From an archaeon (lineage in GTDB: Archaea; Iainarchaeota; Iainarchaeia; Iainarchaeales; CSSED10-239), in NCBI GenBank assembly GCA_041677685.1, contig JBAYPN010000038.1:1-5533 (forward strand): DNA of 5,533 nt, written 5' to 3'. Of this stretch, positions 2,293 through 2,406 are shown piece after piece. Below the pieces are notes generated by a model. That model made no database searches. It saw only the letters and a program-made list of their open reading frames with translations, and was not told the DNA's origin. Every line of letters begins with the position of its first letter. Position 1 is the stretch's first letter. Made by a program: the position numbers and the translations under genes.

Positions 2293-2406
2293 TTATTTTT
2301 TAGATTTGTTAAGTCTATGTATTTCTTCTTGTCTTTTTTCTTTTGCTTTTTGTTTTTTGTTTCCTGGTTTTTTAATTATTCTTAATGGTCTAAAAGGTGG
2401 ACTCAT
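2293..2406 (-). CDS. Unannotated small ORF encoding a 37-aa highly basic peptide (MSPPFRPLRIIKKPGNKKQKAKEKRQEEIHRLNKSKK)
   Basis: Hand-translated on the minus strand: ATG at 2406-2404 and TAA at 2295-2293. A canonical SD, AGGAGTG (2414-2420), lies 7 nt upstream of the ATG. The ORF fills the GH3-M14 gap almost completely, with 18 nt after the GH3 stop and 3 nt before the M14 ATG. The peptide has 10 Lys, 4 Arg and 3 Glu. Caveat: Lys-rich short ORFs arise easily in A/T-rich DNA, and I recognise no homologue. Confidence 0.45.
   Translation of the reverse strand: MSPPFRPLRIIKKPGNKKQKAKEKRQEEIHRLNKSKK

What the first reader, a model, noticed from the sequence alone, without database searches (positions are those of the whole stretch)
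2293..2406. Unlisted 37-codon ORF with the best ribosome-binding site in the window, apparently coupling translation into the M14 gene
The ORF track omits this frame because it is too short. Three features argue that it is translated:
- AGGAGTG lies 7 nt upstream of its ATG.
- The ORF occupies essentially the whole GH3-M14 spacer.
- The downstream M14 ATG (2289) has no SD of its own and sits 3 nt past the micro-ORF stop (TAAattATG), the classic geometry for termination-reinitiation.

The product, MSPPFRPLRIIKKPGNKKQKAKEKRQEEIHRLNKSKK, has a Pro-rich N-terminus. Its net charge is roughly +11, and it ends in a Lys tail. That tail is the preferred substrate type of B-type M14 carboxypeptidases, and the lysines offer many epsilon-amines for an amide-forming ligase. 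It could instead be a nucleic-acid- or ribosome-binding micropeptide.
Basis: partly seen in the sequence, partly recalled or inferred. Interest (0 to 1): 0.6.

Follow-up and report, generated by a model that had tools for sequence, protein, structure and literature searches.

The report
Small basic ORF coupling peptidase translation
A real, probably translated 37-codon gene for a very basic peptide lies between a GH3-type ligase gene and a carboxypeptidase-like gene in a tiny (DPANN) archaeon and most likely hands ribosomes on to the peptidase gene. It is kept in only two related lineages and missing from their relatives, so it is a modest lineage-restricted accessory, not a new kind of system.

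Summary
On the minus strand, ATG 2406 to TAA 2293 encodes MSPPFRPLRIIKKPGNKKQKAKEKRQEEIHRLNKSKK. AGGAGTG (2414-2420) lies 7 nt upstream, and the DUF2817/M14-like ATG (2289) lies 3 nt past the stop.

It is more than chance:
- Spacer shuffles give an ATG ORF of 37 or more codons with an SD in 0.03% of cases.
- Homologous ORFs sit at the same place in three other sequences (L170, L090, L175) from two lineages. Each has a strong SD and a stop 1 nt before, or overlapping by 8 nt, the peptidase ATG.
- The only indel is 12 nt.
- It is the only sense frame open in all four sequences.
- A KKPxNKKQ motif is shared.
- Pooled dN/dS is 0.38.

Public gene callers already list it as a hypothetical protein.

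Eight other orthologous GH3-DUF2817 lineages have no such ORF; there the GH3 stop abuts or overlaps the peptidase start. Exhaustive profile searches find no further relatives.

Best reading: a lineage-restricted small basic protein gene whose translation drives the SD-less peptidase gene by termination-reinitiation. The idea that it is a substrate of the ligase or peptidase is untested and is weakened by this patchy distribution and by non-conserved C-termini. Interest is low to moderate.

The parts
2293..2406 (-). Micro-ORF: 37 codons plus TAA. Product MSPPFRPLRIIKKPGNKKQKAKEKRQEEIHRLNKSKK, net charge +11. Predicted as a Pro-rich extended N-terminus followed by one helix (residues 17-36).
   Evidence: Positional homologues in L170, L090 and L175/L176. 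Smith-Waterman score of window vs L090 is z=7.2 over shuffles. dN/dS is 0.49 and 0.18, pooled 0.38 with p=0.03. It is the only sense frame open in all four sequences.
2350..2373 (-). Codons 12-19, KKPGNKKQ: the motif shared by both lineages. It reads KKP[GES]NKKQ in three of the four sequences and KRPNNKKQ in L175.
   Evidence: Alignment. A motif scan of all fetched loci found it only at this position. Synonymous changes within it (AAA/AAG, AAC/AAT) are seen.
2414..2420 (-). Shine-Dalgarno sequence AGGAGTG, 7 nt upstream of the micro-ORF ATG.
   Evidence: Pairing energy is -12.1 kcal/mol, the best of the six gene starts. It is conserved as AGGAGAG in L170 and as GGAGATGATC in L090/L175, while the spacer just upstream diverges.
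2287..2295 (-). Stop-start junction TAA-ATT-ATG: micro-ORF stop, 3-nt gap, then the DUF2817 start.
   Evidence: Equivalent junctions are TAA-T-ATG (L170) and an 8-nt overlap ATGAATAG (L090, L175). The DUF2817 start has no SD (-0.8 kcal/mol).
1210..2289 (-). DUF2817 gene (359 aa): an M14-like zinc hydrolase and the downstream partner of the coupling.
   Evidence: Pfam PF10994, E 1e-60. Invariant H61/E64, N114-R115, H222 and E287 in 36 homologues. AF2 model with pLDDT 92. Foldseek matches to carboxypeptidases A/B and putative metallopeptidases at TM about 0.5.
2425..4053 (-). GH3-family acyl-acid amido synthetase gene (542 aa), first gene of the unit. Its stop lies 18 nt before the micro-ORF ATG.
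   Evidence: Pfam GH3, GH3_M and GH3_C. PDB sequence matches to plant GH3 enzymes, E 1e-25. Adjacent to DUF2817 in all DPANN relatives examined.
4073..4108 (-). A/T-rich block 20-55 nt upstream of the GH3 ATG: a candidate archaeal promoter for the GH3 / micro-ORF / DUF2817 transcript.
   Evidence: 100% identical between the window and L170, while the rest of that spacer is only 64% identical overall. GH3 has no SD. Promoter function is inferred, not tested.

Best explanation
The 37-codon frame is a genuine small protein gene in a three-gene unit (GH3 ligase, micro-ORF, DUF2817 peptidase-like enzyme) of an Iainarchaeota-like DPANN archaeon.

**Proposed mechanism**
1. The unit is transcribed from a promoter upstream of GH3.
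2. Ribosomes finishing GH3 terminate 18 nt before the micro-ORF. That is too far for efficient reinitiation, so the micro-ORF is started afresh at its own strong Shine-Dalgarno site in an unstructured A-rich stretch.
3. Ribosomes that finish the micro-ORF stop 3 nt before the DUF2817 ATG, which has no Shine-Dalgarno site, and reinitiate there (termination-reinitiation).
4. In relatives without the micro-ORF, the GH3 stop itself abuts or overlaps the DUF2817 start and plays that role. Where the micro-ORF is present, it replaces GH3 as the coupling partner and ties DUF2817 output to a strong independent start.

**The peptide itself**
It is a +11 peptide with a Pro-rich head and one helix, and it is under weak purifying selection with a conserved KKPxNKKQ core. 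It probably has a function of its own, which is unknown. That function is dispensable, because sister lineages lack the gene.

**What is shown and what is inferred**
- Shown: the anatomy, the conservation and the distribution.
- Inferred: translation, coupling, and any function of the peptide.
For: **Anatomy**
-.
- The SD is the strongest of the six gene starts, and the DUF2817 start has none.
- The RNA is unstructured (z=+0.98).

**Chance**
- SD plus an ORF of at least 37 codons occurs in 0.03% of spacer shuffles.

**Homologues at the same position**
- L170: 33 aa, SD AGGAGAG, junction TAA-T-ATG.
- L090 and L175/L176: 41 aa, SD GGAGATGATC, 8-nt overlap with the DUF2817 ATG.
- Homology of the two lineages' peptides: score 73 against a shuffle mean of 34 (sd 5.4), 0 of 5000 shuffles reach it.

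**Coding-like evolution**
- The only indel is 12 nt.
- Nucleotide identity is 0.84 in the ORF. Flanking genes give 0.86-0.90 and the noncoding TtuA-GH3 spacer 0.64.
- dN/dS is 0.49 and 0.18, pooled 0.38, Fisher p=0.03.
- The other two sense frames carry 2-6 stops in every sequence.
- In L090 vs L175 the region from the SD to the ATG is identical, while the spacer 5' of it has substitutions and an indel.

**Gene calls**
- Called by public gene finders.

**Coupling geometry**
- The DUF2817 start is within 12 nt of, or overlaps, the upstream stop in every orthologous locus where the junction was read, whichever ORF lies upstream.
- Reinitiation in Haloferax works at +1 to +5 nt, drops by 40-60% at 13-14 nt and is lost at 22-23 nt (PMC10666635).
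- An SD is not essential for reinitiation there (PMC6728339).
Against: - There is no ribosome profiling, proteomics or reporter data.
- dN/dS rests on only 24 substitutions and p=0.03. The window-L170 pair alone gives 0.49, and the peptide is only 73% identical where GH3 is 92%.
- DUF2817 could also be initiated independently in A-rich, unstructured RNA, so dependence on micro-ORF translation is not shown.
- The experimental distance rules come from Haloferax and E. coli, not from DPANN archaea.
- The ORF is absent from 8 orthologous lineages. On the NJ trees its distribution needs about 2-3 losses, or a transfer, so any peptide function is non-essential.
- Lys/Asn/Gln/Glu-rich peptides arise easily from A-rich DNA, so part of the motif similarity could be compositional. 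The shuffles control for composition but not for dipeptide bias.
Confidence: 0.6

Rival explanations
1. Coupler only. The frame is translated, but only the act of translation matters: it delivers ribosomes to the SD-less DUF2817 start. The peptide is a functionless by-product that is degraded.
For: - The peptide evolves faster than its neighbours: 73% aa identity against 92% and 90%, and dN/dS 0.49 against 0.07-0.12 for window-L170.
- Length varies (33, 37, 41 aa) and the termini differ.
- The ORF is dispensable in 8 sister lineages, where GH3 couples directly.
- It has no relatives anywhere else.
Against: - The KKPxNKKQ core and overall similarity survive between lineages whose DUF2817 proteins are only 44% identical (z=7.2). 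Synonymous changes occur inside the motif.
- dN/dS is 0.18 in the L090-L175 pair.
- A pure coupler could be far shorter than 33-41 codons.
Confidence: 0.2
2. Free-standing equivalent of an N-terminal tail. The peptide does in trans what a fused Lys-rich N-terminal extension of DUF2817 does in cis in other DPANN lineages. That could be binding an anionic partner such as RNA, ribosome or membrane, or regulating the enzyme. It may have arisen by gene fission or fusion.
For: - DUF2817 proteins of a neighbouring DPANN clade (P0017, P0019, P0020, P0023, P0025, P0026) carry 24-50 aa Lys-rich basic N-terminal extensions.
- In the two loci where the DNA was read (L179, L180), the extension's ATG overlaps the GH3 stop by 8 nt, and no alternative start lies near the conserved YFS motif. 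The gene-call coordinates for the P0023 contig show the same overlap.
- This is the same position, size and composition as the micro-ORF.
- In the window the micro-ORF is even in frame with DUF2817, separated only by TAA ATT.
Against: - There is no sequence similarity beyond composition between the micro-ORF peptides and the extensions: z is at most 2.2 in all 24 comparisons.
- The exhaustive profile search did not pick up any extended DUF2817.
- The extension-bearing clade is not the sister of either micro-ORF lineage.
- The frame relation to DUF2817 is not conserved: in frame in the window, +1 in L170, 8-nt overlap in L090.
Confidence: 0.12
3. Dedicated substrate or carrier. The peptide is modified by the GH3 ligase, on Lys epsilon-amines or at its C-terminus, and/or trimmed by the DUF2817 carboxypeptidase-like enzyme. 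This would resemble small partner proteins encoded next to their ligases.
For: - The gene order ligase / small peptide / amidase-type hydrolase is kept in two lineages.
- The peptide has many lysines.
- DUF2817 keeps the M14-type metal and catalytic residues and fold.
- GH3 enzymes form amide bonds through acyl-adenylates (family knowledge; PDB relatives).
Against: - Eleven other GH3-DUF2817 lineages have no free-standing peptide: eight with direct abutment and three with a fused extension. No motif-bearing ORF was found in about 4 kb either side where that much flank was held.
- The C-termini are not conserved (KSKK, NSKK, KKNE), which argues against C-terminus-specific chemistry.
- Nothing indicates basic (B-type) specificity for DUF2817.
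- There is no hit to any known carrier or RiPP family.
Confidence: 0.05
4. Not a gene: a chance open frame in T-poor, A-rich spacer DNA. The conserved feature would be at the nucleotide level, or a structured RNA.
For: - The spacer is 58% A and 17% T, so stop codons are rare.
- One antisense frame is also open in all four sequences.
- Another SD plus 36-codon ORF in this window (ATG at 1391, plus strand) is demonstrably chance.
Against: - An ORF of at least 37 codons with an SD appears in 0.03% of spacer shuffles.
- The SD, ATG, frame and stop-start junction are conserved in four sequences from two lineages, and the indel is a multiple of three.
- The other sense frames are closed.
- The RNA has no structure (z=+0.98) and no Rfam match.
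- The open antisense frame has no ATG or SD and is the expected mirror of AAA/GAA/CAA-rich codons.
Confidence: 0.04

Closest known systems
Termination-reinitiation (TeRe) coupled gene pairs of archaea and bacteria (Huber et al. 2019, PMC6728339; Huber et al. 2023, PMC10666635)
   Same: - Co-directional ORFs whose stop and start are a few nt apart or overlap: +3, +1 and -8 nt here.
- The downstream gene has no independent strong initiation signal.
- The upstream ORF's start is the controlling one.
- Distances fall inside the experimentally effective range.
   Different: - The upstream partner is a 33-41 codon ORF inserted between two enzyme genes, not a full-length subunit gene.
- There is no SD in the 3' end of the upstream ORF. 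Most overlapping pairs have one, although it is not essential in Haloferax.
- Dependence of DUF2817 translation on the micro-ORF is untested.
Direct GH3-DUF2817 coupling in sister DPANN lineages (L171, L172, L011, L012, L010, L177, L014, L181)
   Same: - The same two enzymes in the same order.
- In L171 and L172 the whole neighbourhood matches the window: TtuA, Hsp20-like, RNase HII, L35Ae, Nop, fibrillarin.
- The DUF2817 start always touches the preceding stop.
   Different: There is no intervening ORF: the GH3 stop is 2-12 nt from, or overlaps, the DUF2817 ATG. The micro-ORF is therefore an add-on, not part of the conserved core.
Fused Lys-rich N-terminal extensions of DUF2817 in another DPANN clade (P0017, P0019, P0020, P0023, P0025, P0026)
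   Same: A 24-50 residue, strongly basic, Lys-rich segment encoded exactly between the GH3 stop and the DUF2817 core.
   Different: - It is covalently part of the enzyme.
- It shows no detectable sequence similarity to the micro-ORF peptide.
- It belongs to a different clade.
Small partner proteins encoded next to their ligase or amidase, e.g. Pup with PafA/Dop and LysW with LysX (recalled from general knowledge, not tested here)
   Same: A small, probably largely disordered protein encoded between or beside an ATP-dependent amide-forming ligase and an amidase-type hydrolase.
   Different: - Those partners are acidic, or have a strictly conserved C-terminal residue used for ligation.
- This peptide is +11 and its C-terminus varies.
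- The ligase here is GH3-type, not glutamine-synthetase-like or ATP-grasp.
- Most GH3-DUF2817 pairs have no such peptide.
- No homology was found.

Membership tests
Termination-reinitiation coupled gene pair | Same-strand ORFs with a stop-start overlap or a gap of only a few nucleotides (efficiency is lost beyond about 20 nt) | tested here: met
   +3 nt in the window, +1 nt in L170, -8 nt in L090 and L175. Distance rule from PMC10666635.
Termination-reinitiation coupled gene pair | Translation of the downstream gene depends on translation of the upstream ORF up to its stop | not testable with these tools
   Needs a reporter with a premature stop or start-codon mutation in the micro-ORF.
Termination-reinitiation coupled gene pair | SD motif for the downstream gene inside the 3' end of the upstream ORF (common, but not essential) | tested here: not met
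   The 22 nt before ATG 2289 pair at only -0.8 kcal/mol. PMC6728339 reports that an SD is not essential for reinitiation in Haloferax.
Protein-coding small ORF (general criteria) | Start, SD, frame and stop conserved in orthologous loci; indels in multiples of three; dN/dS below 1 | tested here: met
   Four distinct sequences in two lineages. 12-nt indel. dN/dS 0.49 and 0.18, pooled 0.38, p=0.03. The other sense frames are closed. The sample is small.
Any described protein family (Pfam, NCBIfam, PADLOC; also archaeal small ribosomal proteins) | Significant profile match | tested here: not met
   No Pfam, NCBIfam or PADLOC hit. Profile searches of 5.8 billion protein clusters and of 1.84 billion cluster representatives return only the family's own three clusters.
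Ligase-conjugated small carrier or tag proteins (Pup- or LysW-like) | Conserved C-terminal residue or motif used for ligation, and co-occurrence with the ligase wherever the ligase occurs | tested here: not met
   The C-termini are KSKK, NSKK and KKNE. The peptide is absent as a free-standing ORF from 11 other GH3-DUF2817 lineages.
M14 metallocarboxypeptidase (label given to the downstream gene) | HxxE...H zinc ligands, the Asn-Arg pair that binds the substrate carboxylate, a catalytic Glu, and the carboxypeptidase alpha/beta fold | tested here: met
   Invariant H61, E64, N114-R115, H222 and E287 in 36 homologues. Assigning these to the equivalent carboxypeptidase A residues rests on my own knowledge. 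AF2 model pLDDT 92. Foldseek hits to CPA, CPB and putative metallopeptidases with probability 1.0 and TM 0.4-0.6 at 10-17% identity. Pfam files it as DUF2817, with only a sub-threshold trace of Peptidase_M14 in precomputed hits.
B-type (basic-residue-specific) M14 carboxypeptidase | An acidic residue at the base of the S1' pocket, and activity on C-terminal Lys/Arg | not tested
   No residue-level superposition or assay was done, and nothing here supports B-type specificity.
GH3 acyl-acid amido synthetase (upstream gene) | GH3 N-terminal, middle and C-terminal domains | tested here: met
   PF03321, PF23571 and PF23572 are all above threshold. Plant GH3 structures match at E 1e-25.
Structured non-coding RNA or riboswitch in the spacer | Stable or conserved secondary structure, or an Rfam match | tested here: not met
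   MFE is -5.4 kcal/mol against a shuffle mean of -8.1, z=+0.98. No Rfam hit at E up to 1.

The most novel reading that the evidence does not exclude
The peptide is a dedicated trans-acting partner of the GH3 ligase / DUF2817 amidase pair: a substrate, carrier or regulatory subunit. It would be the free-standing counterpart of the Lys-rich N-terminal tail that other DPANN DUF2817 enzymes carry fused. The three genes would then form a previously undescribed small-protein modification or trimming module in host-dependent archaea.
Probability: 0.1. Interest if true: 0.6.

Novelty: new member of a known kind. Interest (0 to 1): 0.3.

Why it matters
**What it adds if correct**
- It is a clean natural example of a short ORF that has been inserted into, and has taken over, a translational coupling junction in an archaeal operon.
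- Sister genomes preserve the 'before' state, with GH3 coupled directly to DUF2817. This gives a ready-made comparative system for testing termination-reinitiation rules outside Haloferax.
- It adds one lineage-restricted family to the poorly charted small proteins of DPANN archaea.

**A wider point**
The GH3-DUF2817 pair is conserved across DPANN archaea, and GH3 is unusually well conserved. Nothing on its function turned up in the literature searches run here. That is arguably the more interesting open question.

**Limits**
The peptide is dispensable, confined to two lineages, and has no demonstrated activity. The finding itself is therefore of limited general consequence.

Tried and rejected
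1. **Word-indexed homology search with the peptide.** The query padded with upstream in-frame residues found only itself. A four-sequence profile found only the three known clusters.
2. **Exhaustive HMM search of 1.84 billion representatives.** Only the family itself.
3. **Pfam, NCBIfam and PADLOC on the peptide.** Nothing.
4. **Rfam, tRNA scan and RNA folding of the spacer.** Nothing; the RNA is less structured than its shuffles. The structured-RNA reading is rejected.
5. **Homology between the micro-ORF and the fused N-terminal extensions of other DUF2817 proteins.** Not significant.
6. **Recoding that would fuse the peptide to DUF2817** (stop-codon readthrough in the window, where the two are in frame across TAA ATT; frameshifting on A-runs in L090). 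Rejected as a conserved mechanism, because the frame relation differs in each lineage: 0, +1, and an 8-nt overlap.
7. **P0006 (70% identical DUF2817).** It was hoped to give an intermediate-divergence spacer, but its contig starts inside the gene.
8. **The apparent perfect conservation of an antisense SD plus ORF at 1391-1501 in L170.** This turned out to be a mosaic or chimeric contig that is 100% identical to the window below about position 1500. The antisense ORF is absent from 8 orthologues.
9. **Bacterial promoter/terminator scan.** Not run, because the organism is archaeal.
10. **Literature searches.** Searches for DUF2817 and for archaeal GH3 gave nothing on this gene pair.
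Full report
**1. What is in the sequence**

Read on the minus strand, the interval contains, in order:
- the TAA stop of a 542-aa gene (2427-2425);
- AAAAAC;
- AGGAGTG (2420-2414; AGGAG confirmed at 2416-2420);
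- TGAAAAT;
- ATG (2406-2404);
- 36 further sense codons;
- TAA (2295-2293);
- ATT;
- the ATG (2289-2287) of a 359-aa gene.

The ORF listing reports 2293..2406, minus strand, 37 aa, ATG. The product is MSPPFRPLRIIKKPGNKKQKAKEKRQEEIHRLNKSKK, with 14 K+R, 3 D+E, net +11 and pI 11.2. The spacer 2290-2424 is 135 nt and 58% A, and the ORF with its stop fills 114 nt of it.

**2. The neighbours and the organism**

- The upstream gene has all three Pfam GH3 domains. It matches plant GH3 acyl-acid amido synthetase structures at E 1e-25.
- The downstream gene is DUF2817 (PF10994, E 1e-60).
  - In 36 homologues the residues H61, E64, N114-R115, H222 and E287 are invariant.
  - An AlphaFold model built with that alignment has pLDDT 92.
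  - Foldseek places it with carboxypeptidases A and B and with uncharacterised metallopeptidases: probability 1.0, TM about 0.4-0.6, 10-17% identity.
  - 'M14-like' is thus fair; 'B-type' is not supported by anything here.
- The wider contig carries L35Ae, Nop56/58 and fibrillarin. RNase HII matches the TIGR00729 model and a weak archaeal Hsp20 match is present. GC is about 27%.
- The closest named relative of the locus is a 'Candidatus ainarchaeum sp.' MAG; Candidatus Iainarchaeum belongs to Iainarchaeota, kingdom Nanobdellati/DPANN.

**3. Is it more than chance?**

- In dinucleotide-preserving shuffles of the spacer, an ATG ORF of at least 37 codons appears in 1.3% of 20,000 trials, and with a 5-mer SD at a suitable distance in 0.03%.
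- Over the whole window, 2.7% of shuffles contain any ATG with an SD of -12 kcal/mol or better and an ORF of at least 30 codons.
- Pairing with a generic 16S 3' end gives:
  - -12.1 kcal/mol for the micro-ORF;
  - -9.6 for the Hsp20-like gene;
  - -4.0 for TtuA;
  - about 0 for GH3, DUF2817 and RNase HII.
- This fits the common archaeal pattern in which first genes lack an SD and internal genes have one.
- A caveat on the SD argument:
  - The strongest SD-like site in the window actually precedes a plus-strand ATG at 1391, which opens a 36-codon ORF antisense inside DUF2817.
  - That ORF is absent from eight orthologous genes.
  - SD plus ORF alone is therefore not proof; conservation has to decide.

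**4. Comparative evidence**

The exact 37-aa product is already called as a gene in 47 blocks of the public assembly collection (23 contigs were read), all from the same species.

With a profile of 36 DUF2817 homologues, I fetched 160 related loci and further contigs for chosen homologues. GH3 is adjacent to DUF2817 only in the DPANN loci. The junction takes three states.

| State | Loci | GH3 stop to next ATG | Junction with DUF2817 |
|---|---|---|---|
| Micro-ORF present | window | 18 nt, SD AGGAGTG | TAA-ATT-ATG (+3) |
| Micro-ORF present | L170 (33 aa, MSPPLKPMRRIKKPENKKQKEKEKRERLRNSKK) | 17 nt, SD AGGAGAG | TAA-T-ATG (+1) |
| Micro-ORF present | L090 (41 aa, MPCLKRTVSKRLQKKPSNKKQEQKEAVEKKLHEYLKKKKNE) | 37 nt, SD AAAGGAGATGATC | 8-nt overlap |
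| Micro-ORF present | L175/L176 (41 aa, four substitutions relative to L090) | 39 nt, SD AAAGGAGATGATC | 8-nt overlap |
| No ORF | L171, L172/L173, L011, L012, L010, L014, L177/L178, L181 | 2-12 nt or overlapping | GH3 stop directly abuts the DUF2817 ATG |
| Fused extension | L179, L180, the P0023 contig | 8-nt overlap | DUF2817 carries a 24-50 aa Lys-rich N-terminal extension |

Sources: micro-ORF rows; no-ORF rows; fused-extension rows.

**5. Homology and selection**

- The window and L090 peptides align over 29 residues around KKP[GS]NKKQ. The score is 73 against a shuffle mean of 34 (sd 5.4), and 0 of 5000 shuffles reach it. Their DUF2817 proteins are only 44% identical and their GH3 proteins 65%.
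- The motif was found nowhere else in any frame of any fetched locus.
- Window vs L170:
  - The only indel in the ORF is 12 nt.
  - Nucleotide identity is 0.84, like the flanking genes (0.86-0.90) and unlike the noncoding TtuA-GH3 spacer (0.64).
- L090 vs L175: everything from the SD to the ATG is identical, while the spacer just 5' of it carries substitutions and an indel.
- Nei-Gojobori dN/dS:

| Gene | window-L170 | L090-L175 |
|---|---|---|
| Micro-ORF | 0.49 | 0.18 |
| GH3 | 0.07 | 0.07 |
| DUF2817 | 0.12 | 0.17 |

- Pooled over both pairs, the micro-ORF gives 0.38, one-sided Fisher p=0.03.
- The micro-ORF frame is the only sense frame open in all four sequences; the others carry 2-6 stops each. 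One antisense frame is also open, as expected for AAA/GAA/CAA-rich codons, but it lacks an ATG and an SD.
- The region has no RNA structure (z=+0.98) and no Rfam or tRNA match.

I conclude that the frame is a real coding sequence under weak constraint.

**6. Distribution**

Profile searches of the 5.8-billion-cluster collection and an exhaustive HMMER scan of 1.84 billion representatives return only this family's own clusters. On NJ trees of GH3 and DUF2817, the two micro-ORF lineages are separated by lineages that lack it, including P0030/L181 next to the L090 group and L010 next to the window group. One origin followed by two or three losses, or a transfer, is needed. Either way the ORF is dispensable to the GH3-DUF2817 pair.

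**7. Mechanism**

In every orthologous locus where the junction was read, the DUF2817 start touches the stop of whatever ORF precedes it. In the window the DUF2817 start has no SD. This is the geometry of termination-reinitiation.

Experimental reference points:
- In Haloferax, a native +1 pair lost 60% of reinitiation at 13 nt, and other pairs lost 40-60% at 13-14 nt. Reinitiation was abolished at 22-23 nt (PMC10666635).
- An SD was not essential for reinitiation (PMC6728339).

Where the micro-ORF is present, GH3 terminates 17-39 nt upstream. That is poor for reinitiation, and the micro-ORF has a strong SD of its own in unstructured RNA.

The most economical reading has four steps:
1. The unit is transcribed from the conserved A/T-rich block upstream of GH3 (4073-4108).
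2. The micro-ORF is initiated de novo at its SD.
3. Ribosomes terminate at 2293-2295.
4. They reinitiate at 2289.

The micro-ORF thereby replaces GH3 as the coupling partner and sets DUF2817 output. These steps are inferred. Independent initiation of DUF2817 in A-rich RNA cannot be excluded.

**8. The peptide**

AlphaFold with the three-sequence alignment predicts an extended Pro-rich N-terminus and a single helix at residues 17-36 (pLDDT 83; low information for so short a chain).

The conserved core and dN/dS below 1 suggest that the peptide matters somewhat.

The most interesting lead is that another DPANN clade encodes a basic tail of similar size and composition at the same place, but fused to DUF2817. 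No sequence similarity supports common origin, and the clades are not sisters.

It is weakened by the non-conserved C-termini and by the absence of the peptide from most GH3-DUF2817 loci.

**9. Verdict**

- Translation and coupling are well supported by comparative data but unproven.
- The substrate speculation is unsupported.
- It is a new, lineage-restricted member of a familiar kind: a small SD-led ORF translationally coupled to the next gene. Databases already annotate it as a hypothetical protein.
- Interest is about 0.3.

Noticed in passing
window 1-1500 vs 1500-4626, compared with L170 (Ga0376279_0012360): L170 is 100% identical to the window from position 1 to about 1500, but only about 85-90% identical from 1500 to 4626. 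The switch falls inside the DUF2817 gene. This indicates either a recombinant strain or a chimeric metagenome assembly, and it means the '90% identical' DUF2817 overstates relatedness.
   Followed up: partly
window 1375-1501, plus strand (antisense inside DUF2817): The strongest SD-like site in the window (AAGGAGGTG, -15.3 kcal/mol) lies 6 nt before ATG 1391, which opens a 36-codon ORF (MENKLLILEKGPNSRV...). No equivalent exists in eight orthologous DUF2817 genes, so it is most likely chance.
   Followed up: yes
window 4073-4108, minus strand: A 36-nt A/T-rich block (ATATATAAAACTTATCTTATATATTATTTTTAAATA) lies 20-55 nt upstream of the SD-less GH3 start. It is perfectly conserved between the window and L170, while the rest of that spacer is scrambled. 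It is a candidate archaeal TATA/BRE promoter for the GH3 / micro-ORF / DUF2817 unit.
   Followed up: partly
L179 4001-5236; L180 1099-2280; proteins P0017, P0019, P0020, P0023, P0025, P0026: A DPANN clade of DUF2817 proteins carries a fused 24-50 aa Lys-rich basic N-terminal extension. Where the junction DNA was read (L179, L180), its ATG overlaps the GH3 stop by 8 nt. This matches the micro-ORF in position and composition but shows no detectable sequence similarity to it.
   Followed up: partly
window 1210-4053 and loci L010, L011, L090, L171, L172, L175, L177, L179: The GH3-DUF2817 gene pair is conserved across DPANN archaea and absent from all roughly 155 other (overwhelmingly bacterial) DUF2817 loci fetched. 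GH3 is far better conserved than DUF2817 in the same loci (65-75% vs 42-49% identity). L010 has two tandem GH3 copies. Nothing on the pair's function turned up in the literature searches run here.
   Followed up: partly
window 5099-5533: A 435-nt stretch of about 19% GC with no long ORF lies upstream of the TtuA/NcsA-like gene. It has no Rfam or tRNA match. Gene callers disagree on the TtuA start (310 vs 327 aa).
   Followed up: no
window 831-847 and 1210-1223: Genes are tightly packed here. The Hsp20-like ORF start overlaps the RNase HII end by 17 nt and has its own GGGTGG SD. The 3' ends of the convergent Hsp20-like and DUF2817 genes overlap by 14 nt.
   Followed up: no
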